Assembly: GCA_043228905.1 (NCBI GenBank) | Contig: JBHGNT010000009.1 | Coordinates: forward strand, 11,532,001 to 11,596,000 | Length of the DNA: 64,000 nt | Source: Azolla caroliniana | Lineage: Eukaryota; Plantae; Polypodiophyta | Reading direction: 5' to 3' | Part shown: positions 25,100-57,686 of the stretch, one piece after another | How positions within the stretch are numbered: the stretch's first letter is position 1 | How the letters are laid out: each line of letters starts with the position of its first letter | Translations under genes and position numbers: made by a program | Notes under the pieces: generated by a model | The model's input: only the letters and a program-made list of their open reading frames with translations | What the model was told of the DNA's origin: nothing | The model's database searches: none

Positions 25100-26495
25100 T
25101 AGGTGACGTAGGTCCCAGATAAGGTTTAAGACGAAACCCATTCACTTTCTATTGTATCACTTCCCCGATCAGCATGCCCAGTTGAAACGTGCCTTATTCT
25201 ACTCCTATTATCCAGTACGGGCCTGTCCAACGGAATAGTAATTTTCTTGGCATATGCCCCATGCGTATTTGGAAAACTAATACCGCTTTTCCCACCATAA
25301 AATCTTTTTCACACGCATGCCAGTGTCGGTCAATGAATGCTTTGCGCCACCGTTGTTTCTGCTCTAATATGGCCATACTGCGTACCCTTGTTTCTCCTAG
25401 CTCTAGCAGTCTCTGTAGCCGTATTTGTGCGGATTTGCCCTCTGGTAGCCGGGCTCGTATTTGAATCCGCAGACTGGGTACCTGGAATTCAACTCGCATA
25501 ACCGCCTCCAAACCAAACGCCAGCCTGAATGGTGTTGATTGTATGCTGCTCTTATAGCTGGTATGGTTTGCCCATAACGCGCTATGCAACTTGGTGTCCC
25601 AATCCGTCCTGTTCTCATTGACTATCTTTTTGAGGATAGTTTGGAGGGTTTTGTTCGTGGATTCCGCCAAGCCATTTGCCTACGGGTAATACGACGTACT
25701 TTTCTTGTGCACCACTACGTAATGTGGGGTCAGTTTGTTGATGACCGTATTCAGAAAGTGACTCCTTTTGTCACTAATGAGCTCGATAGGGCAGCCGAAA
25801 CGACACTAGATGTGTTCGTACAGGAATTTCGTCATGACTGTCGCGGTATTCTCGCGTACTGGTTTCGCTTCTACCTAGTTGGTGTAGTAATCCATAGCCA
25901 CCAGGATGTACTTATTGACTATTCGAGCAACCGCCGGGGTAAAAGGTCCCACGAAATCTAACCCCCACTTTTGGAAAGGATCTAGTGGCAACACTGGTTG
26001 GTGTGGCATTCTTGCAACTTCTGTGAGTTGCCCAGTCGTTGGCATAAATCGCACTATCTACAATATTCGTACGCGTACTTTTGCGTCGCCAGCCACCAAA
26101 GTCCTGCTTGCCAAATTTTCTGGGCCATAACATCGCCTGCGTAATGTCCTCCCACCGTACCATAATGGGCTTCGCGTAGAACCGCGGCCTTCTCATCCTG
26201 CTGTATTCCGCGCCTCCAAATGCCATCCCTGCCCTTGTGTATAGTATGTTTTCTACTAAACAGAAATTTCAACTACGGACGACCAACCGTTTTTTCTCAT
26301 CCGTCCGTAATTGTGGTGGCGATAACCCCGTGGTCAGGAAGTAGGTCATTTCCATGAGCCACCGATCTGGGGAGGTCTTTTTCGTTCGTTCTGCTAGCGC
26401 TACTACCCGCAGAATGTCTACATCCGGAAAGTCGTTGTCATCCCTCTGTGCCGTTTCTCCATTATCGAGTCTGCTCAAAAATTCTGCCACTACGT
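25100..26495 (-). pseudogene. Element C integrase
   Basis: HYGTVGGHYAG, AESTNKTL...DWDTKLHSALWA, FRWTGPYWI. Confidence 0.9.
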
Positions 26496-27210
26496 TGTCG
26501 AGGTATTCCTCGCGGATGCGTGGAGTGAGGCAGGACCTCGGGGGTCCTGTACCGAAGAGTAAGAGAGAGAGAGAGAGAGAGAGACCCACTACGTGCGAGC
26601 ATAGATTCACAGGGACACGGCCCTTCGACGCAAGGACGCGAATGGGACACCGACACAAAAAGACACGAAAGTATGTATGTATTGACAAGACAAACAACAA
26701 GAACACTAAGACAACAAAACACGAAGTCGGTTACAACCGAACAGGCCGGCGGACAGATGCCGATACCTGTTCGTAAACGCACAGAAAGACAGGAACAGGT
26801 TGGAGGTGCTGCCGGAAGCACTCGGGCATTCCTCGGAGCAGCGCGAGCCTCCCGAAACCTGCACAGAAGGAAGCTATGGAGTCTGTGAACCAGAGAGAGA
26901 GAGAGAGAAGCCTTCGCGCCCAATCCGACAGCACTTCGTCCTCGACTCTCCGCCCTCCCTCTACCCTCCTCGTCTCCTTCCTTTTATAGGCAAGGAAGGA
27001 GCCGTTTCCCCTTTTACTACCTACCTACCGAATCTACCTAGGATCTCCTATGTACAACTCAAGGCGCACGTGCATGAAGAGTCGGTTTCTACGCTCCGGT
27101 GCACCGATCCCACTCGTGGACGGTTTTCTTCACGACATCCGCCCCCACCTAACCGCGCATCCACCGGCATGCGCCAAATTGTGTTGGGACGGAGAAAACC
27201 TGTCCAGCCT

Positions 27211-30200
27211 TCATTCCCCGCCCGTCGGTTCTTCCTCGGTTTCGGATCGTTCATCGTCACGGTCCAGGTCAACCGGATCTGGCTCGTCGTCGTGACGCTT
27301 CTTGAATGCTTTGATCCGCTTCCCCGCTACCGGAATCGCCATTCTCGTACCGTCGAGTTTCGCCAGATGGTACGTCCCGTTGTCGTTGGCGCTTTGTACC
27401 ACGTAAGGCCCGAACCACCTTCTTGCGAACTTCCGCGTCGCTCGGTGCTGGTTGTCGAGGATGCTGTCGTAGACTAGCACCCAGTCGCCTTCCTCGATCT
27501 TCTTTGGTTGGAGCCGGTGCGTCCGGTCGAACCGGGCTTTGTTCCTCGTCTTGGCCACCCGAAGCCTTTCCGCAGCCTGCTCCACATCCTCCGGTCTCCG
27601 CTCGAGCTGTTGTATGTGCTCCGTCAACAGTTCCTCCCGGCTCATCTCGTCTCTCCAGTCCACGGTTGCCCATGAGGAGACCGTACGTTCGATCGGCATG
27701 ATCGGCTTCTGCCCAAACATCAGCTCTGCCGGCATGAATCCGGTTACCGAACTGTGCGTAGTTCGGTCCGCCCACAACGCGTAAGGCAACAGCCGCGGCC
27801 AGTTCCCGACTTGACCTCCGCATGCCCGAACTAACGCCTTGACGATTGGTCCGTGTCCGCGCTCCACCTTTCCATTCGCCTCCGGATTGTACGCAGTGGT
27901 AAGCGAGAGCTTGACTCCTAGCCGGTCGAATAGCTCCTCGGCCTCTTCGGCGTCCAACTCCCCGCGATCAGCCACGATCTTCCCGACGCACCCGTACCGG
28001 CATATTACGTCCTCGAGCAGGAACCGACATACGGCCGCAGTCGTTTTGTTCTGAAGGGCCCAGCCTTCCACCTGGTTCGTTAGATCTTCTCGAGCCAGGA
28101 CCAGATACCGCATCTGTCCTACTCCTATCGGCATTGTTACCAGGTCTACCATCCATTTGAAGTGGATGGTCGGAGGGTACGTAGGGTGAAGTTCGTCCTG
28201 GTGTCGGACTATGGAGTGCATCTGACAGCTCTCGCAAGTTGTCACGAATCGATGCACGTCCCGGTACAGTCCCGGCCACCAGTACTTCCCCTTTATCTTC
28301 TCGAACGTGGCCCAGGTTCCACGGTGTCCGGCCCAAGGGCTGTCATGGTAGGCCGTTAGCAGCTCCTCCTGTTCTTCCTTCATCGCCACCACCCGGAGCG
28401 GAGCGCCGTCCCTCTTCTTCGGGTGCTTCCATAAGTATCCGTCCCGGAGAAAGAATCGGTAAGCTTTCTTCCGGATCCGGTTGGCCTCGTCCTTCGTCCA
28501 TGACGCATCCGGCGTCATTGTCCTCAAGAATCCACCGATCTGGAGCCACTCGCCGTCGTACTTGCTCTCGTCGAAGTCGTTAAGTGCCGGAGTGCTCGTC
28601 CCATCGGTCGTCACGTACGCCGCCTCGAAGAAGTCCACGCCGACTTCTTCGTCCTCCGAAACCATGCCGCCCTCGTCATCAAACCTCGCCCTCGAAAGCA
28701 TGTCGGCCATGGCGTTGTCCTTTCCGGAAATGTGTCGTATCTCCGGGTCCAGGGACTTGATGTACGCTATCCACCTGAGCATCGCCAGGTCCGGTGTCGC
28801 GCATCCGGAAACCATGCCAAGAATCGGCAGGCAATCCGTCTCGATAATCACTCCTGTCCCGATCAGGTAGTCTTTGTCCGCCTTTACCGCCAAAACGATA
28901 CCCCAGAGTTCGCGTTTAACCTGGGCGTACCCTCGCTGTCGCTCACTGAGGACCTTAGCGCCGAATCGGATCGGGAACCGGGTGCCGTCCTCGTCTTCTT
29001 GGTTGACGACCCATCCGATCCCGGTCGGGCTCGTATCCACCGTTATGTATACCGGGGTACCTTTCTCGTAGACAGCCTTCCGGAGCGCCGGTGCTGCCGT
29101 AAGAGCTTCCTTCAGCTTTGGGACCGACCCCGTGTGCTCGTCTCGCCACTCGAATTTTCGCCCTTTCTTCAGCAACCCGTATAGCGGCTCCGCAACGTGG
29201 GCGTAATGTGGGATCCATATGTGGTAGAATGCGCATGCCCCCAGGAACCTCTGAACTTCCGTAACCGAGCTACAGTCGGTCTTCATCGCGGAGATGGCTT
29301 CTACCTTTGCCGGAGACGGCTTCCGACCATAAGGTCCACATAGGTGTCCGACCACCAGGATTTCCGATTGCCCGAAGGCCGATTTCTCCCCGGAGAAGGT
29401 GAGCCTCGCCTCCTCTAGCCTTTGTAGCACCTTCTCACAGTCGTCGATGTGTGTTGCAACGAATCGCCGGCATCCGTCCGGCCCGAGTGTCTCGTCCTTC
29501 TCTTCCACCCGGCACCCTTTGATAGGGATGTCGTCTAGAAACAGCATGGTGATGTCCGGGATGCAATCCCTCAGTACCTTGTTCATTGCATTCACCATGT
29601 GGGCCACCGAGTTGGTCCCTCCCTGTGGCAGGGTACACATTCGCACTAGGCCGAGGGGAGTTCGCATCGTCGTAATGTCTCTGCTCTCCACGGCTAGCTA
29701 GACCTGGTCGTACCCTGAGTATAGATCACCAACCGAGTAAATCGACCTTCCGGCAAAGGCCTCCGCGAACTCGTCTATGGTCGGTCCGATTCCTGCGTTT
29801 CGAATGGTCACTCTGTTGACCGGCTGCAGGTCTTGAATGAAGCGCAACGTTCCGTTTTTCTTCGGTACGGTAAACCATCGGTTCGAGTATGGGGCACTCG
29901 ACGGTTCAAGAATGCCCATATCTACTTTCTGCCTCAATAGCTCCATCAACTTCGGGATGTGAGCTCTCGGTACCGGAATCGGCATGAGATTCCACGGCAC
30001 ATGCGTTACCGTGAATATCACCATCGGCTCCACGATCGTCGGGTCTACGCACCCGATCTCTTTCGGTGAGAATGCGAAGGCTTTCCCGTGCCTTCCGAGC
30101 ATCCTCCGAAACCGGTCTTCCTCCGCCGGCAGTAGGAACCCGCCCCCACCGATTTTGAGCTCCCGGAGCGTCCCGTCGGTGAAGGTGTGCCCTATGCAGG

Positions 30201-30684
30201 CCGGATCTCGTAAACTGGGGTCCGACGCAACCCCTCTGATCCTGGACTCGCTGCCCTCCGGTAAGGGTGCCGAGATTGGCCTTACCTTCCGATCCACAGT
30301 CTTGTACTTTGTGCTAACCCGGGCCGTCTGATCCGTCCCGAGCCCCCGACTGAAGTTCGCGATGACTTCGTACATCTCTTCGGAACATACCGGTATCGTC
30401 CGGTCTTCGTTAAGGTCTTCTCCGGCAACCTTCCTCAGCATCCCTAAGGTGTCGTCGAAGGAGACCGCCTCCACGGCTCCGCTGATTTCCTCGTCCGGGC
30501 CGAGAACTCCGCACGCTCGAAGTCGCTCTTCCACCCTGGTCCTTTCCCGGCCAACGATGTCGACCATCATACACCCTCCGTTGTCGGAGAAGCAAAATCC
30601 CCTACCTATCGTATAGTCGTGGGGTCTTTTCCGAGTGTCCGGGCTGTCTCGGCCCCACGCCTTGGCAGCCCTCTCTAAAAATCC
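27211..30684 (-). pseudogene. B1 pol (RT, RNase H, integrase) with one premature stop
   Basis: RFIQDLQPVN, FLDD, VDTSPTGIGW, integrase core, GPY; stop at 29698-29700. Confidence 0.93.
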
Positions 30685-32801
30685 TCCCGGTTCTCGCCAC
30701 CGAGGGACTCGCGGTTTCTCTCATGGTTCGGCCGCACCGTCAAAAATTGCACCGAATGGTGCCCGTCCTGGCTTTTGACCCTCGCGTAGGCCGAACCGTT
30801 GTCCAGCACCTTGGTCTCCATTCGCGCCGCCGTGATGTATGGTTCCCCTAATATGACCGGGTGCGAAGACGTTTCCTGTACGAAGAAGTGCTGGTCAATC
30901 TCGACGTCGCCGATCTTGACTCGCACGTTCGGGCAGGCCCCATGCAGTTCCTCTGTGGCGCGCGTCGCTGCCCGTATCTTCCACCCGTGCTTGGTGTTGA
31001 TCGGCCACTTCCCCTTCTTATAGAAGTCCATGGACATTAGGTTTATTTCCGAACCGTGGTCTACCAACGCCACCACCGGTTCCCGAACATCTCCGATTTT
31101 TACCGGGGTCTCCGTGGTCGCTCGGGCCCAGTGTGGCCTCGAGTAGTGGCTCTCCGCCCACTCATCTTCCAGCGCCGAGTCATCGATGTGCGTCGTCCGC
31201 ACCTCCACCGGTTTTTCCAGTTCCGTCTCCGTCGACAGTCTCTTCCGTTTCACCAAGTCTACAATGGAGTCGTGGAACTCCTTCTTGGCGATCCCTAGCA
31301 CCTCCCGTAATGACAGCTCCACCTTGCTGTCGAGGATCCGTTCCTCTAGGACCTTCCGTAGGTCCGTAGTCCTTTCAATTTCCGTCCCTAGTCGGTATCC
31401 GCCCTTCCTGGGGTTATCTTGCGAGCTGGGCCCGCCGGCATCGTTCCGTCGTTGCCCGAATCGGGTCTCGTACCGTTGTGAGGGCCCGGCCGCTCCGGCT
31501 TTCCCCACTCGTTTTTCTTCTACCAGAGCCTCGTAGTTCCGGCAAGCGGCTTCTACGAAGCCCGTCTTCTCCTCGACCGGATCACTCCACCCGGTTATTT
31601 CCCGGGCCCGTCTCTCAGCGCGGTCCGTTTCATCTTTCCTCAGCTGCGCACCGGCGAGGCCTTCCAGCATTGCCGACCAGAAACCGTCTTTACTTTCCTT
31701 TCGGGCCTCGCTGCCCCCGACCTGAATACCGGCTGACGCCGAGTAGTGGATGGCCTCCACGTGTCGGGCCACTGCCTCTTCCATCAGTCTCTTCATACCT
31801 CCTCGCCCGTCGTTTCGGCTCAGGGCCCTCCTGGTGTCGCCAGCGTGCACCCGGCCTTCCCACAGGTACACCACCCGGTTTCTCAACGCCTCTGCAAAAT
31901 CGCCGCAGTCCTTCCGAATGTGGCCAACCTCGTCGCACCACATGCACCTGTTCCCTGCTGCCGGTCGTCGGTCACGAGCCGGTTCGCCGCCTTCCCTTCA
32001 AGTCTGGGCGATCTGGAGATCCTTTATCGCCCGCGTCAACTCCTCTAGCGCGGCTCCTCCGGACGAGCCATTGACCATGCTGGTCGAAGCTGGACCGGTC
32101 TCGAGCCATTCCCGGGTTTCTTCCCTTCGCACTTGCGGTGCCGGTTCAAGCCTCCTTGCTGTAACATAGCCCGCACCTGCCGCCCCGTTGTCAGCCCATT
32201 CTCGCCGTTTGTCAAAACGGCCACAGACTCTCTTAACCGCAGCCCAGTCGGTTATCAGCCCGTCTTCAGTTTCCAGCAAGGAGCCGACTTGATCCCGGTC
32301 CCGCTCGTCCACCGACTTGACGAACAGTAGGACCCGGCTCGTATCCAGAATGGTTCGGTCAAGCGCCGAAAGGCGCGCAAAGCGTTCTTCGAACTCCCGG
32401 AGGAGTGCCGACGCGTTTCTTCCTTTGCCGGGGGACTCCACCCATTCCATGAAGTCCCGTTTCGAAAGCCGAAGCGCGTCGTCCAGCCCATATTTCTCTA
32501 GGAGTCGGCCTTCGAACTCCTCCCAGGTACGGCTCTCCGCCCGTACCTCGAGCACCTCCGCATGGATGCTCGGCATCGCCACTCGAGGGAACCCGGCAAG
32601 ACGCCTCTCTTCCGGAATGTCCCGCATCAGCATTTCCGCCCCGTAGGACGCCAAATACCTCGTAGCATCCTTTCCGCTGAAACGGCCGATCGTACCGACG
32701 ACCACCTCAATGGCTCTGTCGAGGGCACCGGTGCCCTCGCGTGTGCTCAATATCCGATCCACGGCCGAAGCCATGGCCTCTGCAAGATCCGACCCCCTCA
32801 T
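30675..32801 (-). pseudogene. B1 gag-protease with one premature stop
   Basis: CMWCDEVGHIRKDC knuckle, LVDHGSEINL and ILGEPY protease motifs; TGA at 31998-32000 where B2 has CGA. Confidence 0.9.
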
Positions 32802-32823
32802 CCTCTGCTCTTCTGCCGCCTCT

Positions 32824-32841
32824 TTCACGTCGGGTTCACCA
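32824..32841 (-). promoter_or_regulatory. Primer binding site, tRNA-Trp (B1)
   Basis: TGGTGAACCCGACGTGAA 4 nt after the 5' LTR; complementary to the plant cytosolic tRNA-Trp 3' end as recalled. Confidence 0.85.
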
Positions 32842-33489
32842 AATATGTCGAGGTATTCCTCGCGGATGCGTGGAGTGAGGCGGGACCTCGGGGGTCCTGT
32901 ACCGAAGAGTAAGAGAGAGAGAGAGAGAGAGAGACCCACTACGTGCGAGCGTAGATTCACAGGGACACAGCCCTTCGACGCAAGGACGCGAATGGGACAC
33001 CGACACAAAAAGACACGAAAGTATGTATGTATTGACAAGACAAACAACAAGAACACTAAGACAACAAAACACGAAGTCGGTTACAACCGAACAGGCCGGC
33101 GGACAGATGCCGATACCTGTTCGTAAACGCACAGAAAGACAGGAACAGGTTGGAGGTGCTGCCGGAAGCACTCGGGCATTCCTCGGAGCAGCGCGAGCCT
33201 CCCGAAACCTGCACAGAAGGAAGCTATGGAGTCTGTGAACCAGAGAGAGAGAGAGAGAGAAAACTTCGCGCCCAATCCGACAGCACTTCGTCCTCGACTC
33301 TCCGCCCTCCCTCTACCCTCCTCGTCTCCTTCCTTTTATAGGCAAGGAAGGAGCCGTTTCCCCTTTTACTACCTACCTACCGAATCTACCTAGGATCTCC
33401 TATGTACAACTCAAGGCGCACGTGCATGAAGAGTCGGTTTCTACGCTCCGGTGCACCGATCCCACTCGTGGACGGTTTTCTTCACGACA

Positions 33490-34906
33490 ACGTGTTGCGT
33501 ACCCAGGCGGTGCTGAATTACAAAGTCGAATTCCTGAAGCAGCAGCATCCATCTCGCCAATTTCTTCGTCACCTCTTGTTTCTCCACCAAATATAGCAGT
33601 GCCGAATGATCCACGTGAAATGTGAATTTCCGCCCTACCAGATAATGCTAGAACTTATCGATGTTCTGTTGTGGAATAGTTACACTCAATCATTGATCAT
33701 TTTCAACTAGCGTAGTACACTGGCCGGTACAAATTTGGCTCCGTGAGCTGCATTAGCGCACTACCTATTGCTATGTCCGAGGCATCTACGAACACATGGA
33801 ATGGCTTCACCCAAACTGGTGGTTGTACGATGGGTGCTTGCATTAGCATTACCTTTAGCGCATCATATGCCTTTTCTTCCGTAGCTATCCATTGCAAGGG
33901 AGTCCGATGAACGATGGCATGTAACGGCGTGGCGAAGTCCGCCAAATAGCGTATCATCCGACTGTGCCATCGTATTTGTCCTAAAAAACGGATGAGTGAT
34001 TTCGCGTTTGTCGGCGTTTTCGCGTGGGTAATCGCGGAGATTTTATTCGAATCGACCACTATCCCTTCCTTGCTGACTATATCGCCGAGGAGAGCCCCAC
34101 TGGTAACGCCAAAGGCACATTTGGCAGGATTTAGGCTTAAGCGTGCGGTGCAGCAACGTTCCAGACACAGTTGCAGATGCGTAAAATGGTCGGTTGTTCT
34201 TCCATATACTGGAAAATCGTCTAAAAAAACTTGCATGAAGGCCGGAATATATTCCCCAAAAATCTTCGTGATTGTCCGTTGAAATGTCGTCGGCGCCATC
34301 TTTAGCCCGAACATCATGACGACTGCAACATAGACTCCTCAGTCTATGACAAACGTCGTCTTCTCTTAGTCGTCGGGGTGCATGCATACATGATTGTACC
34401 CACTGAAGCCATCTAAAAAACTGTACATGTCATGCCCCGCGACGGCGTCCAGTACGCTAACGGTGAAAAGTAAAGGGAATGCGTCCGTAATGGTTATGGC
34501 GTTTGGGTTTCGGTAGTCCACGCATAACCGTATTTTGCCATTTTTCTTTGGTACAACTACGATCGGGCTTAACCATGTAGCTTGTTTAATTGGTCGTATG
34601 AATCCCGCCTTCACGAGTTTGTCAATTTCTTCTTTTACGCGGGCCATGTAGTTTGGGTTCATGCGGTATCGACGCTGCTGGACCGGTTTTGCATCGGTTG
34701 CTAAATTGATCTTATGTTGATTGAACTTCGGATCTAACTCCTTCATGTCCTCGTAGGCCCAGGCGAACACATCTTTATACTTCCTGAGTAGTGCTATCAT
34801 CGCGTCTCTCTTATCCGGCATTAATTCTTTTGCGATGGATAAGAAATGGGGTTCTGACGTCGTACCCACGTTTACTTCTTCCAGGGCTGAGACGGTGACT
34901 TGGCGT
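33490..34906 (-). pseudogene. Element C reverse transcriptase and RNase H
   Basis: WLSPIVVVPKKNGKIRLCVDYR, FLDGFSGYN, FLDD, FVDASDIAIG. Confidence 0.92.
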
Positions 34907-35407
34907 TGTCACGTTGCTACGCGCGTGCGTGGAGAAGGGCGGAACCACGGGGGTCTTGGACTAAGGAGTAGAGGAGAAGGAATCGGACACGGAATGGAAG
35001 CTTTGCTCAAGAAGAAGAAGAATGAACAAGAGATTAGATCGAACAAGAGGAAGATGGAGACAAGATGATCAACAAGATATATTAAAACGAAATGAACGAT
35101 TACAAAAAAGGTGGCTGCATAGGCCGCACCACACGACTACTCAAAAACCCTAACCGACGAAGATGAAGATAAAGATAAAGAAACCCTAACCCTAACGCTC
35201 GACCTATGTGGTATACCTCGCACACTCAAAATAGGCAACCCTTTTACAAAGGCCGCTCCCTTCCTTTTATAGAACAAGGAGAGGGATGCGTTACATGGGA
35301 TCGTCTGTCCCGACTTGACTACTCTTCGGCGCCATAAAGGCGCCCTCGTTATTCACACTAAATGTACAAGGGTTTCCGCATCTGGCCGAAATTCTTCACG
35401 ACATCCG

Positions 35408-44139: not shown

Positions 44140-44569
44140 TCACAGACTCCATAGCTTCCTTCTGTGCAGGTTTCGGGAGGCTCGCGCTGCTCCGAGGAAT
44201 GCCCGAGTGCTTCCGGCAGCGCCTCCAACCTGTTCCTGTCTTTCTGTGCGTTTACGAACAGGTATCGGCATCTGTCCGCCGGCCTGTTCGGTTGTAACCG
44301 ACTTCGTGTTTTGTTGTCTTAGTGTTCTTGTTGTTTGTCTTGTCAATACATACATACTTTCGTGTCTTTCGTGTCGCTGTCCCATTCGCGTCCTTGCGTC
44401 GAAGGGCCGTGTCCCTGTGAATCTACGCTCGCACGTAGTGGGTCTCTCTCTCTCTCTCTTACTCTTCGGTACAGGACTCCCGAGGTCCCGCCTCACTCCA
44501 CGCATCCACAAGGAATACCTCGACATATTTGGTTAACCCGACGTGAAAGAGGCGGCAGAAGAGCAGAGG

Positions 44570-46696
44570 ATGAGGGGGTCGGATCTTGCAGAGGCCATGG
44601 CTTCGGCCGTGGATCGGATATTGAGCACACGCGAGGGCACCGGTGCCCTCGACAGAGCCATTGAGGCGGTCGTCGGTACGATCGGCCGTTTCAGCGGAAA
44701 GGGTGCTACGAGGTATTTGGCGTCCTACGGGGCGGAAATGCTGATGCGGGACATTCCGGAAGAGAGGCGTCTTGCCGGGTTCCCTCGAGTGGCGATGCCG
44801 AGCATCCATGCGGAGGTGCTCGAGGTACGGGCGGAGAGCCGTACCTGGGAGGAGTTCGAAGGCCAACTCCTAGAGAAATATGGGCTGGACGACGCGCTCC
44901 GGCTTTCGAAACGGGACTTCATGGAATGGGTGGAGTCCCCCGGCAAAGGAAGAAACGCGTCGGCACTCCTCCGGGAGTTCGAAGAACGCTTTGCGCGCCT
45001 TTCGGCGCTTGACCGAACCATTCTGGATACGAGCCGGGTCCTACTGTTCGTCAAGTCGGTGGACGAGCGGGACCGGGATCAAGTCGGCTCCTTGCTGGAA
45101 ACTGAAGACGGGCTGACAACCGACTAGGCGGCGGTTAAGAGAGTCTGTGGCCGTTTTGACAAACGGCGAGAATGGGCTGACAACGGGGCGGCAGGTGCGG
45201 GCTCTGTTACAGCAAGGAGGCTTGAACTGGCACCGCAAGTGCGAAGGGAAGAAACCCGGGAATGGCTCGAGACCGGTCCAGCTTCGACCAGCATGGTCAA
45301 TGGCTCGTCCGGAGGAGCCGCGCTAGAGGAGTTGACGCGGGCGATAAAGGATCTCCAGATCGCCCAGACTCGAAGGGAAGGCGGCGAACCGGCTCGTGAC
45401 CGACGGCCGGCAGCAGGGAAAAGGTGCATGTGGTGCGACGAGGTCGGCCACATTCGGTAGGACTGCGGCGATTTCGCGGAGGCGTTGAGAAACCGGGTGG
45501 TGTACCTGTGGGAAGGCCGGGTGCACGCTGGCGACACCAGGAGGGCCCTGAGCCGAAACGACGGGCGAGGAGGTATGAAGAGACTGATGGAAGAGGCAGT
45601 GGCCCGACACGTGGAGGCCATCCACTACTCGTCGTCAGCCGGTATTCGGGTCGGGGGCAGCGAGGCCCGAAAGGAATGTAAAGACGGTTTCTGGTCGGCA
45701 ATGCTGGAAGGCCTCGCCGGCGCGCAGCTGAGGAAAGATGAAACGGACCGCGCTGAGAGGCGGGTCCGGGAAATAACCGGGTGGAGCGATCCGGTCGAGG
45801 AGAAGACGGGCTTCGTAGAAGCCGCTTGCCGGAACTACGAGGCTCTGGTAGAAGAAAAACGAGTGGGGAAAGCCGGAGCGGCCGGGCCCTCACAACGGTA
45901 CGAGACCCGATTCGGGCAACGATGGAACGATGCTAGTGGGTCCAGCTCGCAAGATAACCCCAAGAAGGGCGGATACCGACTAGAGACGGAAATTGAAAGG
46001 CCCACGGACCTACGGAAGGTCCTAGAGGAACGGATCCTCGACAGCAAGGTGGAGCTGTCATTACGGGAGGTGCTAGGGATCGCCAAGAAGGAGTTCCACG
46101 ACTCCATTGTAGACTTGGTGAAACGAAAGAGACTGTCGACGGAGACGGAATCGGAAAAACCGGTGGAGGTGCGGACGACGCACATCGACGACTCGGCACT
46201 GGAAGATGAGTGGGCGGAGAGCCACTATTCGAGGCCACACTAGGCCCGAGCGACCACGGAGACCCCGGTAAAAATCGGAGATGTTCGGGAACCGGTGGTG
46301 GCATTGGTGGACCACGGTTCGAAAATAAACCTAATGTCCATGGACTTCTATAAGAAGGGGAAGTGGCCGATCAACACCAAGCACGGGTGGAAGATACGGG
46401 CGGCGACGCGCGCCACAGAGGAACTGCATGGGGCCTGCCCGAACGTGCGAGTCAAGATCGGCGACGTCGAGATTGACCAGCACTTCTTCATACAGGAAAC
46501 GTCTTCGCACCCGGTCATATTAGGGGAACCATACATCACGGCGGCGCGAATGGAGACCAAGGTGCTGGACAACGGTTCGGCCTACGCGAGGGTCAAAAGC
46601 CAGGACGGGCGCCATTCGGTGCAATTTTTGACGGTGCGGCCGAACCATGAGAGAAACCGCGAGTCCCTCGGTGGCGAGAACCGGGAGGATTTTTAG
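44570..46696 (+). pseudogene. B2 gag-protease
   Basis: Near-identical to B1; premature TAGs at 45125, 45458 and 46241. Confidence 0.9.
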
Positions 46697-46753
46697 AGAG
46701 GGCTGCCAAGGCGTGGGGCCGAGACAGCCCGGACACTCGGAAAAGACCCCACG
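46687..46753 (+). promoter_or_regulatory. Putative -1 ribosomal frameshift signal (GGAUUUU plus pseudoknot)
   Basis: G GAT TTT TAG; the -1 frame is open into pol; stems GGGCTG/CAGCCC and CGTGGGG/CCCCACG. Confidence 0.8.
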
Positions 46754-49700
46754 ACTGTACGATAGGTAGGGGATTTTGCTTCTCCGACAACGGAGGGTGT
46801 ATGATGGTCGACATCGTTGGCCGGGAAAGGACCAGGGCGGAAGAGCGACTTCGAGCGTGCAGAGTTCTCGGCCCGGACGAGGAAATCAGCGGAGCCGTGG
46901 AGGCGGTCTCCTTCGACGACACCTTAGGGATGCTGAGGAAGGTTGCCGGAGAAGACCTTAACGAAGACCGGACGATACCGGTATGTTCCGAAGAGATGTA
47001 CGAAGTCATCGCGGACTTCAGTCGGGGGCTCGGGACGGATCAGACGGCCCGGGTTAGCACAAAGTACAAGACTGTGGACCGGAACGTGAGGCCAGTATCG
47101 GCACCCTTACCGGAGGGCAACGAGTCCAGGATCAAAGGGGTTGCGTCGGACCCCAGTTTACGAGATCCGGCCTGCATAGGGCACACCTTCACCGACGGGA
47201 CGCTCCGGGAGCTCAAAATCGGTGGGGGCGGGTTCCTACTGCCGGCGGAGGAAGACCGGTTTCGGAGGATGCTCGGAAGGCACGGGAAAGCCTTCGCATT
47301 CTCACCGGAAGAGATCGGGTGCGTAGACCCGACGATCGTGGAGCCGATGGTGATATTCACGGTACCACATGTGCCGTGGAATCTCAAGCCGATTCCGGTA
47401 CCGAGAGCTCACATCCCGAAGTTGATGGAGCTATTGAGGCAGAAAGTAGATATGGGCATTCTTGAACCGTCGAGTGCCCCATACTCGAACCGATGGTTTA
47501 CCATACCGAAGAAAAACGGAACGTTGCGCTTCATTCAAGACCTGCAGCCGGTCAACAGAGTGACCATTCGAAACGCAGGAATCGGACCGACCATAGACGA
47601 GTTCGCGGAGGCCTTTGCCGGAAGGTCGATTTACTCGGTCGGTGATCTGTACTCAGGGTACGACCAGTTCCAGCTAGCCGTGGAAAGCAGAGACATTACG
47701 ACGATGCGAACTCCCCTCGGCCTAGTGCGAATGTGTACCCTGCCACAGGGAGGGACCAACTCGGTGGCCCACATGGTGAATGCAATGAACAAGGTACTGA
47801 GGGATTGCATCCCGGACATCACCATGCTGTTTCTAGACGACATCCCTATCAAAGGGTGCCCGGTGGAAGAGAAGGACGAGACACTCGGGCCGGACGGATG
47901 CCGGCAATTCGTTGCAACACACATCGACGACTGCGAGAAGGTGCTACAAAGGCTAGAGGAGGCGAGGCTCACCTTCTCCGGGGAGAAATCGGCCTTCGGG
48001 CAATCGGAAATCCTGGTGGTCGGACACCTATGTGGACCTTATGGTCGGAAGCCGTCTCCGGCAAAGGTAGAAGCCATCTCCGCGATGAAGACCGACTGTA
48101 GCTCGGTTACGGAAGTTCGGAGGTTCCTGGGGGCATGCGCATTCTACCACATATGGATCCCACATTACGCCCACGTTGCAGAGCCGATATACGGGTTGCT
48201 GAAGAAAGGGCGAAAATTCGAGTGGCGAGACGAGCACACGGGGTCGGTCCGGAAGCTGAAGGAAGCTCTTGCGGCAGCTCCGGCGCTCCGGAAGGCTGTC
48301 TACGGGAAGGGTACCCCGGTATACATAACGGTGGATACGAGTCCGACCGGGATCGGATGGGTCGTCAACCAAGAAGACGAGGACGGCGTTCGGTTCCCGA
48401 TCCGATTCGGCGCAAAGGTCCTCAGTGAGCGATAGCGAGGGTACGCCCAGGTTAAACGCGAACTCTGGGGTATCGTTTCGGCAGTAAAGGCCGACAAAGA
48501 CTACCTGATTGGGACGGAAGTGATTATCGAGACGGATTGCCTGCCAATTCTCGGCATGGTTTCCGGATGCGCGACACCGGACCTGGCGATGCTCAGGTGG
48601 ATAGCGTACGTCAAGTCCCTGGACCCGGAAATACGGCACATTTCCGGAAAGGATAACGCCATGGCCGACATGCTTTCGAGGGCAAGGTTTGATGACGAGG
48701 GCGGCATGGTTTCGGAGGACGAAGAAGTCGGCGTGGACTTCTTCGAGTCGGCATACGTGACGACCGATGGGACGAGCACCCCGGCACTTAACGACTTCGA
48801 CGAGAGCAAGTACGACGGCGAGTGGCTCCAGGTCGGTGGATTCTTGAGGACAATGACGCCGGATGCGTCATTGACGAAGGACGAGGCCAACCGGATACGG
48901 AAGAAAGCCTACCGATTCTTTCTCCGGGACGGATACTTATGGAAGCACCCGAAGAAGAGGGACGGCGCTCCGCTCCGGGTGGTGGTGATGAGGGAAGAAC
49001 AGGAGGAGCTGCTGACGGCCTACCACGACAGCCCTTGGGCCGGACACCGTGGAACCTGGGCCACGTTCGAGAAGATAAAGGGGAAGTACTGGTGGCCGGG
49101 ACTGTACCGGGACGTGCATTGATTCGTGACAACTTGCGAGAGCTGTCAGATGCACTCCATAGTCCGACACCGGGACGAACTTCACCCTACGTACCCTCCG
49201 ACCATCCACTTCAAATGGATGGTAGACCTGGTAACGATGCCGATAGGAGTAGGACAGTTGCGGTATCTGGTCCTGGCTCGGGAGGATCTAACGAACCAGG
49301 TGGAAGGCCGGGCCCTTCAGAACAAAACGACTGCGGCCGTATGTCAGTTCCTGCTCGAGGACGTAATATGCCGGTACGGGTGCGTCGGAAAGATCGTGGC
49401 TGATCGTGGGGAGTTGGACGCCGAAGAGGCCGAGGAGCTGTTCGACCGGCTAGGAGTCAAGCTCTCGCTTACCACTGCGTACAACCCGGAGGCAAATGGA
49501 AAGGTGGAGCGCGGACACGGACCGATCGTCAAGGCGTTAGTTCGAGCATGCGGGGGTCAAGTGGGGAACTGGCCGCGGCTGCTGCCTTACGCGTTGTGGG
49601 CTGACCGGACTACGCACAGTTCGGTAACCGGATTTATGCCGGCAGAGCTCATGTTTGGGCAGAAGCCAATCATGCCGATCGAACGTACGGTCTCCTCATG

Positions 49701-50160
49701 GGCAACCGTGGACTGGAGAGACGAGATGAGCCGGGAGGAACTGTTGACGGCGCGCATACGACAGCTCGAGCGGAGACCGAAGGACGTGGAGCAAGCGGCG
49801 GAAAGGCTTCGGGTGGCCAGGACGAGGAACAAAGCCCGGTTCGACCGGACGCACCGGCTCCGACCAAAGAAGATCGAGGAAGGCGACTGGGTGCTAGTCT
49901 ACGACAGCAGCCTCGACAACCAGCACCGAGCGACACGGAAGTTCGCAAGAAGGTGGTTCGGACCTTATGTGGTACAGAGCGCCAACGACAACGGGACGTA
50001 CCGTCTGGCGGAACTCGACGGTACGAGAATAACGATACCGGTAGCTGGGAAGCGGATCAAGACGTTCAAGAAGCGTCACGACGACGAGCCGGATCAGGAT
50101 GACTTGGACCGCAACGACGAGCGATCCGAAACCGAGGAAGAGCCGACGGGCGGGGAATGA
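46690..50160 (+). pseudogene. B2 pol (RT, RNase H, integrase)
   Basis: ORFs 46801-48435, 48520-49122 and 49126-50160 lie in one frame, with stops at 48433 and 49120. Confidence 0.93.
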
Positions 50161-50449
50161 AGGCTGGACCGGTTTTCTCCGTCCAGACACAATTTGGCGC
50201 ATGCCGGTGGATGCGCGGTTAGGTGGGGGCGGATGTCGTGAAGAAAACCGTCCACAAGTGGAATCGGGGTACTGGAGCGTAGAAACCGACTCTTCATGCA
50301 CGTGCGCCTTAAGGAAATCCTAGGTAGATTCGGTAGGTAGGGAGTAAAGGGGAAACGGCTCCTTCCTTGTCTATAAAAGGAGGGAGACGAGGAGAGTAAA
50401 GGGATCGTGGGGAGTCGAGGACGAAGTGCTGACGGATTGGGCGCGAAGG

Positions 50450-50501
<52 letters not shown>

Positions 50502-50887
50502 TCACAGACTCCATAGCTTCCTTCTGTGCAGGTTTCGGGAGGCTCGCGCTGCTCCGAGGAATGCCCGAGTGCTTCCGGCAGCGCCTCCAACCTGTTCCTG
50601 TCTTTCTGTGCGTTTACGAACAGGTATCGGCATCTGTCCGCCGGCCTGTTCGGTTGTAACCGACTTCGTGTTTTGTTGTCTTAGTGTTCTTGTTGTTTGT
50701 CTTGTCAATACATACATACTTTCGTGTCTTTTGTGTCGTTGTCCCATTCGCGTCCTTGCGTCGAAGGGCCGTGTCCCTGTGAATCTACGCTCGCACGTAG
50801 TGGGTCTCTCTCTCTCTCTCTTACTCTTCGGTACAGGACTCCCGAGGTCCCGCCTCACTCCACGCATCCGCGAGGAATACCTCGACA

Positions 50888-52700
50888 CCGTAAAATTCGT
50901 GGCGACGCTTACTCCAAGTCTTCCCATCATCCGCTCCTCCATGGCCTGGCGGAATCGTGGGACTAGTTGCAGCAACTTCTCCATGGTTAATGTGATCTCG
51001 CAGCCTGTCAGTGCCTTCCATATGGGGTCCGGGGATGGTCCCTCTTCCTCCAATAGCTCCACCGTGTTTGCGGACTCCTTCCGCATGCGCTCCATATTTG
51101 TCGTGTTTGCTTTTTCAACCCATGCTTGGGTTGTCCGTCGTGTCTCATCTAGCGCGGCCCAATCAACATTTGTTTTTTGTTGACGTGTCGTGACTTACTG
51201 TACTTCCGTCATAATCGTATTGACAGCGGACCCCTTGCCCTTGCATATTGGGCATTGTGTGGAAAAATGTCTAGGTTGTTGACAAACAAAACAATGGATC
51301 CTAGATTCACCCTTCTCGACCCCTGGTGGTGTGTGTCGATCCCCAGGTGTGACTTGCTCCTCTCGGTCCTGATTCGTTCATCAAAGCGTACGCGATGGTT
51401 GCTGTTGGTCCCGGCGTGGTTCCTGGTGCCTGTCATCGTCCGAACTTTCGTTGTACCGCTGTTGGTCCTGATATTGACGATGCTTTCCGCGAGGCCCATT
51501 GAAGCTGCCACATTTGTTCGTCGGACGGTAATTCTCATAGCATCGGCCCCCTTTAGTATTTTTGGGGTTACCACGGTAGTCTTCATCCTCCGGCTCCTCT
51601 TCCTCGGAATCGTTGTGATTCCGACGATTCTGGTAGTGCCGGTCATTGCGTGGGTTTCGATCCATATACCGTGTTCATTCTTCTTGCCGCCTTTGTTCAT
51701 TACGGCGTGGGGGACGTTCTGTTTCCACGCTGCGTACTGTGGGCGTGGCTCTGTTCAACATATTGTACTCGCACTTCTCAATTGTGTGAGCTTTCGAGTG
51801 ACAGATTGGACAGTGGATCCGCATGTTGCATTCAACTGCGGAATGCCCCGAATTCAAGCAAATCGTGCATTGGATCGCTTAACGAAAATGTTGTTCCTCG
51901 TCCTGAGGTAACGCTTGTCGTAATGAGGACATGGAAAACCTTTCCTCTTCTTCATCCAGCTCGAGTTGTAGTACTCTTTCTATGACCATATCAGTCGTTT
52001 CCCCTTTCACGCTATTGTTGGTTAGTGTTGTCCGTATGGGTCAGCGTAATGCTGCCAGAAATGTCTCCCTAGCCTCGTCCTCCGTCGGGCCCCGTTATAA
52101 TTTCCGTCGTAGATTTTGGAAGTGTAAACTGAAATCCGCTACCGTCTTGATCGGCAACTATTTAATTGTATAAAACTGCCCGAGGATTTTGCGTTGCGGC
52201 ACCCTCCGATGAAAAAACCGTAGAAAGGGTGACTGCAGTTGGTTGAAGGTCGTGATTGCCGGCAGATCCATCTGTGAATGCCAAACGCCGCTCTCCCATC
52301 CAATGTAAATCCGAACTCCGTCATTTTGGACTGGTGCGCTACTGCCTCGGAAAGGCTCCGCGCCATGTGCTTTGCATTCCAGACATTGAGGAACAGTCGG
52401 ATGTGGGTTGCGGCGTCGGTTTCGTCGTTGAAGCGGGGATAAGCAAAGGCCACGTTGGGTGCTACGGCGGGCAGGGAAAGGCCACAGTGCTTTTGTGGTG
52501 AGCGCGCTTCCTGCGTATCGTCAAGGTATTTGGAGAGCGAGAAATCGTCTTTGTGGTCCCGACAGGTATTAGTCTGGTTACTGAGGCGAGGCTTTTGCCG
52601 TGCACGTTCCTCTGCCTGGCATGTGATGGACCTTGTGATTGGTTGGTCTTGTCGTGTTGGTTCTCTGGGGCGTCTGAGGCTGAACATCCATTCGTCGTTG
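50888..52700 (-). pseudogene. Element C gag
   Basis: YPRFNDETDAATHIRLF...FTLDGRA and zinc knuckle CPICHSKAHTIEKC; frameshifted. Confidence 0.8.
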
Positions 52701-53213
52701 TTTGTCTGTGAGAAGACACAGATCACCAAGTGTACCAAAACTGTTACCGATTAGGAACACGGTCTATGGTCAGTCCTTCGACCTAGACCTCAAAGTGACT
52801 GTGTGGCAATGAATGGTAGCATCTGTGCATAATACTTAGGGGAATACCTCCCGTAACCTAGCAGCATATAAGGGAGACGGCTACAACTGAGCTCCTTAGA
52901 CAGTGGGCTAGCACACACACTTTTACTCACGCCTACGCTCTTACGAATGTGCTACGCCACCAAGGATTACAGGCACACAATAGATTAACCACAGATACGC
53001 ACAAATATCAGAGAAGATAGAACTCTATTAAGATATGCCTTTTACATTCAAAATTACACGCTACCTCTATCAGAGGTTTTCTGCCATGTATATACGCAGC
53101 AAGGTCTTTTAGCCGTTCACGCTTCCCGCGTGAACCGTTTACATGCATTACAATATTACTCGATTCCATATTACTACGCTCTTGTCCGTTGGTTACTATT
53201 CTGGCGGACAACA

Positions 53214-55930
53214 GCATGGCTAGGTCAAGAGTTGCGCATCTAGAAACCATACCGAGAATCGGTAGGCAGTCTATTTGTATACTCACGTCTATCACAATGA
53301 GGTAGTCTTTGTCGATCTTTACCGCGGAAACGATACCCCATAGCTCACGCTTGACTTGGGCGTATCCTCGTTGTCGCTCACTTAGTACCTTCGCACCGAA
53401 TCAGATAGGGAAACGCATGCCGTCTTCGTCCTCTTGATTTAAGACCCATCCGATCCCGGTCGGGCTAGTGTCCACCGTGATGTAGACCAGAGTTCCTAGT
53501 GCGTATTCCACTTTGTATAAAGCTGGTGCCACGATGAGCGTTTGTTTTAGCCTCTGTACCGCCTCGGTATGTTTCTTTGTCCATTCGAATTTCCTGCTCT
53601 TCTTTAGCAAGCCGTAGAGTGGTTCGACGATGTGCGGGTAATGAGGGATCCATATGTGGTAGAAGGCGCATGCTCCTAAGAACCGTCAGACCTCGGTGAT
53701 GGATATGCACTCCTCCTTCATTGCCGAGATGGCCTCTACCTTGGTTGGTGATGGCTTCCGGCCGTACGACCCACATAGATGGCCCACCACTAAGATCTCT
53801 GGTTGTCCAAAGACCGACTTCTCTCCCGAGAAGGTAAGTCGTGCGTCTTCGAGCCTCTGTAGTATCTTCTCGCAGTCGGAGATATGGTCGGTGAAAAACC
53901 TTCAGCACCCGTCCGCGCCGATCGACTCATCCTTGGTGTCCTCTGGACACCCCTTGACAGGGATGTCGTCCAAGAAAGTCATGGTGATGTCCGGAATGCA
54001 ATCCCGCAAAACTTTGTTCATTGCATTCACCATGTGTGCCACCGAGTTGGTCCCTCCTTGTGGTAGGGTACACATTCGAATTAGGCCGAGAGGAGTTTGC
54101 ATTGTTGTGATGTCCATGCTTTCCACGGCCAGCTGGAACTGTTCGTACCCCAAGTAAAGGTCTCTAACCGAGTATATGGACCCTCTGGCGAAGGCTTCCA
54201 CGAACTCATCGATCGACAGTCCAACTCCCGTATTGCGGATGGTCACCTTGTTGACCGGTTGTAAGTCCTGGATGAATCGCAACGTACCGTTCTTCTTTGG
54301 TACCGTAAACCATCGGTTAGAGTAAGGGGCACTCGATGGTTCAAGGATGCCCAGCTCCACCTTCTGCTTAAGAAGCTCCATCAACATTGGCATGTGAGCT
54401 CTTGGTACTTGAATCGGTTTGAGACTCCATGGCATGTGCGGCACGGTAAAGATCACCATTGGTTCGACAATGGTCGGGTCGACGCACCCGATCTCTCCCG
54501 GCGAGAATGCGAAGGCTTTCCCGTGCCTCTCGAGCATCCTTCTAAGCTGGTCCTCTTCCACCGGCAGTAGGAAGCCACCCCCACCGATCTTCAGCTCTCG
54601 TAGCGTTTTGTCGGTGAAAAGGTGTCCTATGCCGGCGGGATCTTGCAAGCTCGAGTCAATAGCGACCCCCTTTATTCGTTCCCAGCTGCCCTCCGATAAG
54701 GGAGTCGTGACGTGCTTCACCTTCCGGTCTACAGTCTTGTACTTGGTGTCTACTCGGGCGATCCGATGCGCCTTGGTTTTTCTTTCGAAGTCCGCAATGA
54801 CTTCATACATGTCGACCGAGTTGACCGGTATGACTCGGTCTTCGCTTAGGCCTCCTTCGACTACCTTCCTGATTTCTCCAAGGGTATCATCGAACAAGAC
54901 CGCCTCCACGGCTTCCCCAATCCCTTCGTCGTGACTCAAGGCTCCGCACGCCTTTAAGCGTATCTCGGCCCGTTTTCTTTCTCGGCCACTGATGCTGCCT
55001 ATGGTACATCTCCCATTGTCGGAGAACAAAACTTTCCTTCCTATTTTACAGGTGTGGGGAATTTTCCAGCTATCCGGACTATCGCAGCCCCGCGCCTTGA
55101 TAGCCCTTTCTAAAAATCTGCCTTGTCGTTATTTCCGAGGGTGTCCCTATTCTGCTCGTGATTCTTCCAAACGGTCAAAATTTGGATGGAATGACAGTCG
55201 TCCTGACTTTTTACCCTCGCATAGGCTTAACCATTGTCCAGCACTTTCGTCTCCATTCTAGCCGCCCTGATGTATTGTTCGTCGAGGATGACCGGGTGGG
55301 AGCACGTATCTTCATGAAAAAGTGTTGGTTTATATCGAAGTCTCCGACGCTCACCCTAACGTTCGGGCAAGCCCCGTGTAGTTCTTCCGTGGCTCTTGTA
55401 GCCCCATGTATCTTCCACCCATGTTTGGTGTTGATCAGCCAATTCCCTCTTTTGTAGAAGTCCAGGGACATCAGGTTAATTTCCGACCCGTGGTCGATTA
55501 ATGCCACCACCAATTCCTTCACGTCCCCGATACGAACCGGGGTTTCTATAGTCGTTCTTGCCCAGTGCGGCCTAGCATACTGGCTCTCCACAAGCTCCTT
55601 TTCCACGGCTATCTCATTGAGGAGTGTCGCCCTTACCTCAACCGGCTTCTCGGGCTCCGGTTCTGTCGCGAGACGCTTTCTCTTCACGAGCTCCACGATG
55701 TTGTCGTGGAATTCCCTTCTCGCTATGCCAAGCACTCCCCTAAGCGTGAGTTCTATGCAACTGTCAAGAACTAGCTCCTCTAGAACCTTCTGTAGGTTCG
55801 TTGTTTTCTCTATTTCCGAGCATAAACGGAAGCTTGGAATCCTGCCCTTCTCCTTCTCTTGGAACCCGGTCGGAGTGGCATTGTGCCTTTTGGGTGCACT
55901 TCGGGTGTCATACCTCCCCGAAGGGCCCGC
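53214..55930 (-). pseudogene. Element A gag-protease and pol (RT, RNase H)
   Basis: LIDHGSEINL, RFIQDLQPVN, FLDD; multiple frameshifts. Confidence 0.9.
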
Positions 55931-56617
55931 TGTCGTGATGTTTTCAACACATAGTGTGAAACCACCACAAAAAAAAGAATAAAGTAGTAGTTGAAATAAA
56001 CTAATATTGTGAAGTCAACTTTTGTAACAAATGATGAAAAGATAAGAAGTTAGAAGCGAATTTTCAAAAGTAGAAAAAATAGAAAAATAATAATAATAAT
56101 AACACAAAAAAAAAAACGCGAGGCGTAGAATTGAGGAGCATGGTAGAGAAAAAAGCTCATAATTTCCTCATCCGGTGTCCAAATTAGACAAGAAAACATT
56201 CATAAGAAATCTAACTCAACGGATTTTCCAAAAATAGCTTTCATGTCTAATTTGGACTTACAAAAATAAGATAGGATAGAAATAAAACGCAACTCATATA
56301 GACAAGCTTCTTTTTAGGAGAAAAATAAAGCAAACCATAGTAAACCTAATAAGAGCTTATTTTAAGAAGAAGAGAGACAGGGGGATTGAAGAAGAAAAGA
56401 TTTATATTTCCTCTCTCATACTCTTATACCCCAAAAGGGGATATAGAAGAAAAAAAAATATCATGTATAAAAACAAGTCCATTATATTGATGATTTAGTA
56501 ATAAAAACTTTCCATATTTCTTCTCTTATGCTCTCTTATTTTAAACATTGCTTATGTATAAAGATAATTAAGTGTCATTCATACTCCCGTAATCTAAGCT
56601 TTTCTTACTTATTAGCA
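55931..56617 (+). repeat. Possible LTR fragment that truncates element A
   Basis: Abrupt switch to AT-rich DNA starting TGTCGTGA, like the lineage LTR start; preceded by CCGC. The far end was not found. Confidence 0.4.
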
Positions 56618-56622
56618 TTATT

Positions 56623-57686
56623 TGACGGTGTCGTGCCTTTCGGCTCCGGATCGTTGCGTGAGTCGGGTGGGAACCGCCGAGGTTTTGGACTAGGAGAAAG
56701 AAAAATATGAGATGAGGCTAGTAATGAATAGATTATTAGAAAGAGAGATAGAAATTTCGTGAATCCCACAAGTGTATTTTATTCGATTAATCAATATTTA
56801 GATAAGAATATGTATTTAGATTGAAAGAAATATATAAGAAACTTGTGAATCCCACAAGTATAGATTATATTATTTTCGTGAATCCCACGATTATATTAAT
56901 TGGTTGGTGTTTTCAGAAATATATCCAATTTCCAAATATTTCACACACCTATTACATTGTGCTCCCCATCCTTATGTAGTGATGGGAGAGACTAAGCATA
57001 GCTACATGCTTTTTTTTCTAATATGTTCATGCACACTAAATGTGCATGTGATGCTTTTCTAATCCTTGCTTTTATTTGCTAAATATAGTGCTCATGCACG
57101 CTAGATGTGCATGAGTCACTTTTTAGTTGCTTGCGTTTTTCTATAAAATATTCACGCACTCTAAAAATGCATGGTTTACCTTTTAATAAAGGTAGGCGCA
57201 AATAAAGCACTTATAGTTATTAAATCTATTTGTAGAACACTAAAGATAAGGTAGCATAATGGTAAAGTTGAGGTTTGGCTACGTGGAGGTACAGGTTTCA
57301 AATCTTGCCCTATGCACGTGATAAATATTTTGATATTCTTATTTTATTTATTTATATGTAATTAAATCGTTTATATTATTTTTACTTTTTCACGTAGTGT
57401 ACGAAATACACTACGACAACGGGAACTAAACTCTCCGTTATACGCAGTGCTCAGCCACAACCGAGCTTAGAATCATACACAGAAAACGGGAATGAAAGCA
57501 CGACACAAAGAAGAGAAGAGCACACTGGATGTTTACGTGGAAAACCCCAAACTCGGGAAAAAAAACCACGGCAGCCCACAGGCTGCAAACTATCACTATG
57601 TTAGAATGTACAACAGTGAGTTCACGGAGGCAACGACCTCGTGCTCACGATCTTCGCCACAGGCGGCGGTTACAACAGAAGCAACG

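What the first reader, a model, noticed from the sequence alone, without database searches (positions are those of the whole stretch)
26492..57422. Ty3/gypsy lineage with CpG-centred 4-bp target-site duplications
Seen: all four two-sided insertions of this lineage have 4-bp TSDs with CG in the middle: ACGT (B1), GCGT (D), CCGT (B2) and ACGG (solo LTR 56629). One-sided junctions agree: ACGT (9088), ACGT (18104), CCGC (55927), and CCAT (20012, the deamination product of CCGT). Copia and element C in the same window have 5-bp TSDs. Known: plant LTR elements usually make 5-bp TSDs with weak sequence preference, and this integrase has no chromodomain. Inference: the integrase cuts symmetrically around CpG, possibly methyl-CpG, which would steer it into other TEs without a chromodomain.
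Basis: partly seen in the sequence, partly recalled or inferred. Interest (0 to 1): 0.85.

Follow-up and report, generated by a model that had tools for sequence, protein, structure and literature searches.

The report
Moss-type retrotransposons insert at CG sites
These jumping genes land on a CG pair and duplicate four bases around it, a habit already published for the moss Phygy group to which they likely belong, so the finding is real but largely known; whether the CG must be methylated is untested.

Summary
All 4 two-sided insertions have exact 4-bp TSDs centred on CG. Of 4 one-sided junctions, 3 have CG and 1 has TG. In independent metagenome loci, 14 of 16 TSD-blind junctions have CG at the same register against 4.9% background.

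It is not new. Neumann et al. 2019 report Phygy as 4-bp TSD in 100% of 186 elements, NCGN preference, tRNA-Trp PBS, no extra domain. The window's elements match on TSD, lack a chromodomain and aRH hit, and have Physcomitrium gag relatives. Placement against labelled Phygy references could not be tested.

Small additions: the target sharpens to Y|VCGB|R (T at position 1 in 1 of 60 half-sites, about 30% expected). An acidic residue sits at the position of PFV Ala188 in 81 of 82 integrases. A gag-only element carries the same TSD. The most likely mechanism is direct sequence and shape readout by a 4-bp-stagger intasome. Methyl-CpG dependence and steering into TEs were not shown.

The parts
26496..33489 (-). 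B1, full-length non-chromovirus Ty3/gypsy (Phygy-type), 6994 bp; LTRs 26496-27137 (3') and 32846-33489 (5'), 0.8% diverged; gag and pol carry in-frame stops
26492..26495 (.). B1 left TSD ACGT (right copy 33490-33493)
32826..32841 (-). B1 primer-binding site, same motif in D and (1 change) B2; tRNA-Trp assignment is recalled, not tool-verified
27138..27149 (-). B1 polypurine tract
27214..28500 (-). B1 integrase: HHCC, DDE (D119, D178, E213), weak SH3-like C-terminal domain, about 30-residue acidic tail, no chromodomain hit; E181 aligns to PFV Ala188
34907..43213 (-). D, non-autonomous element of the lineage (gag-like only, no pol); LTRs 34907-35403 and 42672-43213, 2.0% diverged; TSD GCGT at 34903-34906 and 43214-43217; interrupted by a copia
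43882..50887 (+). B2, full-length sister of B1 (95.7% identical), 7006 bp; TSD CCGT at 43878-43881 and 50888-50891
56629..57418 (-). Solo LTR of another family of the lineage; TSD ACGG at 56625-56628 and 57419-57422; homologous LTRs abut the same PBS in loci such as L002
7923..9087 (+). 3' LTR of a lineage element that starts left of the window; right flank ACGT 9088-9091
18108..18951 (-). 3' LTR related to the solo LTR; flank ACGT 18104-18107
20016..20773 (-). 3' LTR of older lineage element A (internal part runs to 21691 and resumes 53214-55930); flank CCAT 20012-20015
55927..55940 (+). Junction CCGC followed by an LTR start of the lineage at 55931, inserted in the gag of A; far end not found
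21692..53213 (-). Host gypsy element E of another lineage (about 24% RT identity); LTRs 472 bp, 6.1% diverged; 5-bp TSD GCATG; holds B1, D and B2 (control)
35408..40760 (-). Copia inserted in the PPT of D; 5-bp TSD ATCCG (control)
1775..7261 (+). Copia with 5-bp TSD GTACG (control)

Best explanation
These are non-chromovirus Ty3/gypsy retrotransposons, likely of the Phygy clade, that leave 4-bp duplications centred on CG, most likely because their integrase itself reads the sequence and bendability of a short target (about Y|VCGB|R) without needing methylation. Shown: 4-bp TSDs, CG centre in 30 of 32 sites (TG in the other 2), near-absence of T at position 1 and A at position 4, an ordinary gypsy integrase fold with no chromodomain hit. 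Inferred: the intasome joins the two strands 4 bp apart and kinks the central C-G step, as 4-bp retroviral intasomes do at YR steps. Base contacts, possibly through the acidic residue at the PFV Ala188 position, would narrow YR to CG. The gag-only element D would be moved in trans by the same integrase. Nesting in TEs would follow from young TEs being CG-rich and from selection against insertions in genes.
For: TSDs. Outside test with a TSD-blind rule: 14 of 16 CG, background 4.9%, P 5e-17, at most 3 of 16 at any other register. Pooled 32 sites: half-site first base A32 G14 C13 T1 of 60, against T 30-34% in flank and window NCG contexts; outer base pyrimidine in 28 of 36, 18 expected, p 6e-4. 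Whole-genome contigs of three organism labels clip most often after matching CGT next to the B2 LTR (11, 12 and 10 contigs at 43879). Phygy description. Four retroviruses with 4-bp TSDs show the same T/A avoidance and a YR centre, and PFV local preference is largely independent of chromatin (PMC4422553, abstract and section 6). Drosophila ZAM integrase binds its CGCGCg target directly (PMC2527525 passages); that Drosophila lacks CpG methylation is my recall. Residue 181 is E72, D9, N1 of 82 and aligns to PFV A188. Fold matches PFV and Ty3 integrases.
Against: No experiment separates CG from methyl-CG. All sites are old insertions filtered by selection. A flexible-step model alone predicts TA, CA and TG centres too, and 0 of 32 are TA or CA, so a further specific contact has to be assumed. 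The E181 role rests on a sequence alignment with a nearby gap, and I did not survey that position in 5-bp lineages. The outer-base signal is post hoc (8 positions looked at). The 24 outside sites come from 8 assemblies of one accession series. In one search the loose rule gave CG in only 21 of 39 candidates. ZAM's CG site alone was not sufficient for cleavage in vitro. Phygy membership was not tested against labelled references, and B1/B2 (7.0 kb) fall below the reported 7.7-10.0 kb.
Confidence: 0.68

Rival explanations
1. The integrase prefers or needs 5-methyl-CpG, so it uses the host's silencing mark to land in TE-rich heterochromatin without a chromodomain.
For: All 8 window sites lie in or beside other TEs. 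At least 10 of 24 outside flanks are repeat-like. TEs here look CpG-methylated: CpG transitions make up 3 of 5, 4 of 6, 4 of 10 and 14 of 29 LTR-pair changes. Phygy nested in Tcn1 is reported in P. patens, and Phygy domains are among those enriched at centromeres of a liverwort. The centre is CG rather than any YR step.
Against: No methyl-binding domain (MBD, SRA) was hit at E<=1. The window is almost all TE, so nesting is uninformative. 14 of 24 outside flanks had no repeat hit (small library). ZAM gives a CG-targeting precedent by direct binding. The flanking T/A avoidance matches generic 4-bp intasome geometry.
Confidence: 0.14
2. The integrase reads CG locally, but a host chromatin factor or nucleosome feature bound by the C-terminal domain or acidic tail chooses the region, as for Ty3 or MLV.
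For: A weak SH3-like C-terminal domain and a short tail are present. Tethering is established for related integrases (Ty3-TFIIIB structure listed). Centromeric enrichment is reported in a liverwort.
Against: Tails are short (median about 37 residues) and vary from 3 to 234. No regional bias was measured here because no genome is held.
Confidence: 0.14
3. The CG centre is chance or an artefact of how LTR ends were called.
For: Only 4 two-sided sites lie in the window, in CG-rich DNA (CpG o/e 0.98). Outside junctions are one-sided.
Against: P 5e-17 in a TSD-blind outside set with a single-register peak. The same motif is published for 186 Phygy elements. Other elements in the window have 5-bp TSDs.
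Confidence: 0.01

Closest known systems
Phygy clade, non-chromovirus Ty3/gypsy (Neumann et al. 2019, PMC6317226; seen: passages of main text and Additional file 5 table)
   Same: 4-bp TSD, NCGN preference, no extra domain, coding region fills the internal part, conserved PBS that I recall as tRNA-Trp; 24 P. patens proteins among the best 120 gag hits
   Different: Elements are 7.0 kb against 7.7-10.0 kb. Identity to P. patens proteins is only 30-67%, so the host is probably another species. The finer motif Y|VCGB|R and a gag-only member are not mentioned in the passages I saw.
TatI (OTA/Tat) and Selgy
   Same: 4-bp TSD in both; tRNA-Trp PBS in TatI
   Different: TatI has aRH in 100%, with no such hit here. 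Selgy is 4.4-6.7 kb with a tRNA-Ala PBS and no NCGN note.
Drosophila ZAM (PMC2527525; seen: passages)
   Same: Gypsy-type integrase with a CG-containing target that it binds directly
   Different: Target is CGCGCg with a second binding site nearby; different lineage and host.
PFV, MLV, PERV and XMRV intasomes (PMC4422553; seen: abstract and section 6)
   Same: 4-bp stagger, YR centre, T disfavoured at first and A at last TSD position; fold and DDE alignment
   Different: Their YR enrichment is modest (on average 63% above a 22% baseline), whereas here 30 of 32 centres are CG; Ala188 corresponds to Glu or Asp here.

Membership tests
Phygy | Falls in the Phygy clade on RT/RH/INT trees with REXdb references | tested here: inconclusive
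   No labelled Phygy sequence was available. A quick gag-protease tree of 75 of 119 rows (careful search unfinished, no outgroup) puts B1/B2 among Riccia, Adiantum and two P. patens families; that those families are Phygy is inference.
Phygy | 4-bp TSD | tested here: met
   4 of 4 two-sided sites
Phygy | NCGN target | tested here: met
   30 of 32 sites, other 2 TG; 14 of 16 by the blind rule
Phygy | tRNA-Trp PBS (81%) | tested here: inconclusive
   An 8-nt-plus tRNA-type PBS is conserved in B1, D, B2 and anchors 120 LTRs in loci. The Trp assignment is recalled; searches found no reference to confirm it.
Phygy | No chromodomain | tested here: met
   0 of 12 proteins; positive control hit
Phygy | No aRH domain and no extra ORF; polyprotein fills the internal region | tested here: met
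   One RNase H only in 10 of 10 pol proteins at E<=1 (no positive control for aRH); B1 coding frames run from just after the PBS to 76 bp before the 3' LTR
Phygy | Size 7656-9968 bp (descriptive; the paper calls size relatively insignificant for classification) | tested here: not met
   6994 and 7006 bp
TatI | aRH domain (100%) | tested here: not met
Selgy | 4.4-6.7 kb and tRNA-Ala PBS | tested here: not met
   Size 7.0 kb; the PBS part rests on recall
Chromoviruses (Galadriel, Tcn1) | Chromodomain at integrase C-terminus | tested here: not met

The most novel reading that the evidence does not exclude
Phygy-type integrases read 5-methyl-CpG directly at the centre of the target, through a remodelled target-contacting loop (acidic residue at the PFV Ala188 position), and so home to silenced TE DNA without a chromodomain: a DNA-methylation-guided integrase spread across liverworts, mosses, ferns and Chara.
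Probability: 0.12. Interest if true: 0.8.

Novelty: new member of a known kind. Interest (0 to 1): 0.22.

Why it matters
As it stands this confirms a published Phygy trait in further genomes and sharpens the motif from NCGN to about Y|VCGB|R. It gives annotators a usable signature (TGTCG...CGACA ends, 4-bp CG-centred TSD) that also ties pol-less elements and solo LTRs to the lineage. Phygy is the only plant LTR lineage for which Neumann et al. report a TSD sequence preference, and I found no paper explaining it, so the mechanism is an open and testable question. If methyl-CpG were required, it would be a route to heterochromatin targeting that needs no chromodomain.

Tried and rejected
No own genome is held, so no genome-wide logo or compartment test was possible. 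The LTR-end/PBS pattern found nothing in viral contigs. Loci L080-L122 hold only about 300 bp of flank and their records could not be reopened. Of 120 PBS-anchored LTRs, 95 gave no start under the first rule.

Rows dropped before counting: 9 of 25 starts were PPT-preceded; L079 is a degenerate PPT but was kept as a miss; 1 of 4 3' ends (L011) is a truncated PBS. In one search, of 39 candidates I kept 17 of 19 within 2 mismatches (L063 and L081 lie inside LTRs), 4 at 3 mismatches that were PBS-anchored, and 1 that duplicates a 3' end. I dropped 15 at 3 mismatches, none with CG, as probable false starts (a reversed-sequence control gave 7 false starts).

The first lay showed only internal loose ends. 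The second hides 31 rows and favours long pieces, so it is qualitative. No RNA holder was listed. The tRNA identity of the PBS was not confirmed. The protein atlas gave only generic gypsy integrase clusters. Cluster look-ups gave no organism names. CG density next to sites (0.047 per base) does not tell methylated from unmethylated targets. No earlier scan findings were returned. PMC7466625 (passages) has no TSD or methylation terms and the link RLG2/RLG3 = Phygy is unverified. PMC6839031 (passages) concerns an unrelated transposon. Additional file 1 of Neumann et al. (per-element TSDs) was not among the supplements held and may already show the VCGB refinement.
Full report
Anatomy. The window is a nest of LTR retrotransposons with CpG o/e 0.98. 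Self-alignment, ORFs and Pfam resolve one Ty3/gypsy lineage with TGTCG...CGACA ends, a shared PBS and a shared PPT. B1 (26496-33489, minus) and B2 (43882-50887, plus) are full length and 95.7% identical. D (34907-43213) has LTRs and PBS of the lineage but only gag-like sequence. A solo LTR lies at 56629-57418. Older or partial members give 3' LTRs at 7923-9087, 18108-18951 and 20016-20773, and an LTR start at 55931.

Observation. Testing duplication lengths 2-8, only 4 bp matches at B1 (ACGT), D (GCGT), B2 (CCGT) and the solo LTR (ACGG). One-sided flanks read ACGT, ACGT, CCAT and CCGC as reported. The 55931 junction is genuine because host gag homology ends at 55930. The two copia elements and E have 5-bp TSDs. 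With CG at 6.0% of positions, 4 of 4 has probability 1.3e-5.

Independent test. No genome is held. A pattern made of the LTR end and PBS, which does not involve the TSD, returned 123 metagenome stretches from 36 of 64 parts of the collection. Of 120 PBS-anchored LTRs, 25 had a start under a fixed motif rule; 9 were PPT-preceded and 16 were scored as flanks. CG lay at TSD positions 2-3 in 14 of 16, with one TG and one misfiled degenerate PPT, against 4.9% in the same flanks (P 5e-17). No other register exceeded 3 of 16. All 3 genomic 3' ends were also NCGN. A looser rule gave 21 CG of 39 candidates but admits false starts (7 in reversed sequence). The kept outside sites come from 8 assemblies of one accession series. 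In whole-genome contigs of three organism labels laid on the B2 junction, the commonest genomic clip follows a matched CGT (11, 12 and 10 contigs), and no listed row clips after T or GT alone. Thirty-one rows are hidden, so this is qualitative.

Motif. Pooling 8 window and 24 outside sites gives a CG centre in 30 and TG in 2. The first base per half-site is A32, G14, C13, T1 of 60, against about 30-34% T expected. The base outside the duplication is a pyrimidine in 28 of 36 cases, 18 expected (p 6e-4, post hoc among 8 positions). The target is therefore about Y|VCGB|R, best ACGT.

Identity. Pol relatives include Riccia and Chara proteins. Gag relatives include 24 P. patens and 7 Adiantum proteins among the best 120. 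No chromodomain or second RNase H is hit in 12 proteins at E<=1, while a chromodomain remnant of another element at 14296-14451 is readily found. Neumann et al. 2019 state that Phygy elements are the exception among plant LTR elements in having an insertion preference for NCGN. Their table gives 186 elements, 4 bp in 100%, tRNA-Trp 81%, 7.7-10.0 kb, no extra domain. Jedlicka et al. 2019 also find 4-bp TSDs commonest in Phygy, and Phygy nested in Tcn1 (passages). I put Phygy membership at about 0.85. The clade-defining tree test could not be run with labelled references; my quick gag tree only shows the elements among bryophyte and fern families, including two from P. patens. The tRNA-Trp reading of the PBS is recalled.

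Mechanism. The predicted integrase (mean pLDDT 87) is an ordinary gypsy/foamy-type fold whose best matches are PFV and Ty3 intasomes. Retroviruses with 4-bp TSDs select a flexible YR centre and avoid T at the first and A at the last position, which is the flank pattern seen here. PFV reads bases through Ala188 largely independently of chromatin (abstract). The aligned residue in this lineage is Glu in 72, Asp in 9 and Asn in 1 of 82 sequences, a candidate specificity determinant by inference only. ZAM shows that a gypsy-type integrase can bind a CG target directly, although that site alone was not sufficient for cleavage. I therefore favour direct sequence and shape readout (0.68) over methyl-CpG reading (0.14) and host tethering (0.14). 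Nothing here separates CG from methyl-CG. LTR-pair changes are rich in CpG transitions, so TEs are probably methylated, but that says nothing of the target's state at insertion. Steering into TEs is not shown: 10 of 24 outside flanks are repeat-like against a small library and there is no background.

Verdict. The additions are a sharper motif, a candidate residue and a pol-less member with the same signature. I found no paper testing methyl-CpG targeting by these elements (open-access library only). Interest 0.22, new member of a known kind.

Noticed in passing
window 1770-1774 and 35403-35407: Both copia TSDs (GTACG, ATCCG) end in CG; n = 2 in CG-rich DNA, about 5% by chance for CG anywhere in both.
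   Followed up: no
window 34907-43213: D is a young (2% LTR divergence) gag-only non-autonomous element with the lineage's ends, PBS and TSD; its 3' LTR lacks about 45 bp present in the 5' LTR.
   Followed up: partly
window 35403-35408: A copia inserted inside the polypurine tract of D, at the LTR boundary.
   Followed up: no
window 14296-14451: Chromodomain (Pfam Chromo E 2e-15) of a decayed chromovirus, followed by a PPT-like tract; used as positive control.
   Followed up: partly
window 17744-17859 and 17981-18104: Local duplication next to the 18104 junction; the uninterrupted copy reads ATGC where the target copy reads ACGT, consistent with CpG decay at a paralogous site.
   Followed up: no
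window 22164-25100: Host element E has about 3 kb between integrase and 3' LTR with broken frames that hit none of my stored proteins; its PBS is unlike the Trp-type and Met-type motifs of its neighbours.
   Followed up: no
window 18952-20011: Internal region behind the 18108-18951 LTR has no hit to stored proteins but has DNA relatives in L030, L042, L070 and L075; possibly another non-autonomous family.
   Followed up: partly
window 62573-62909: Inverted repeat of about 340 bp (84%), MITE-like, in AT-rich DNA with CpG o/e 0.37.
   Followed up: no
L012/L013, L068, L023: Tandem or nested members of the lineage, including an LTR inserted into another LTR at ACGG (L023); some tandem contigs may be collapsed assemblies.
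   Followed up: partly
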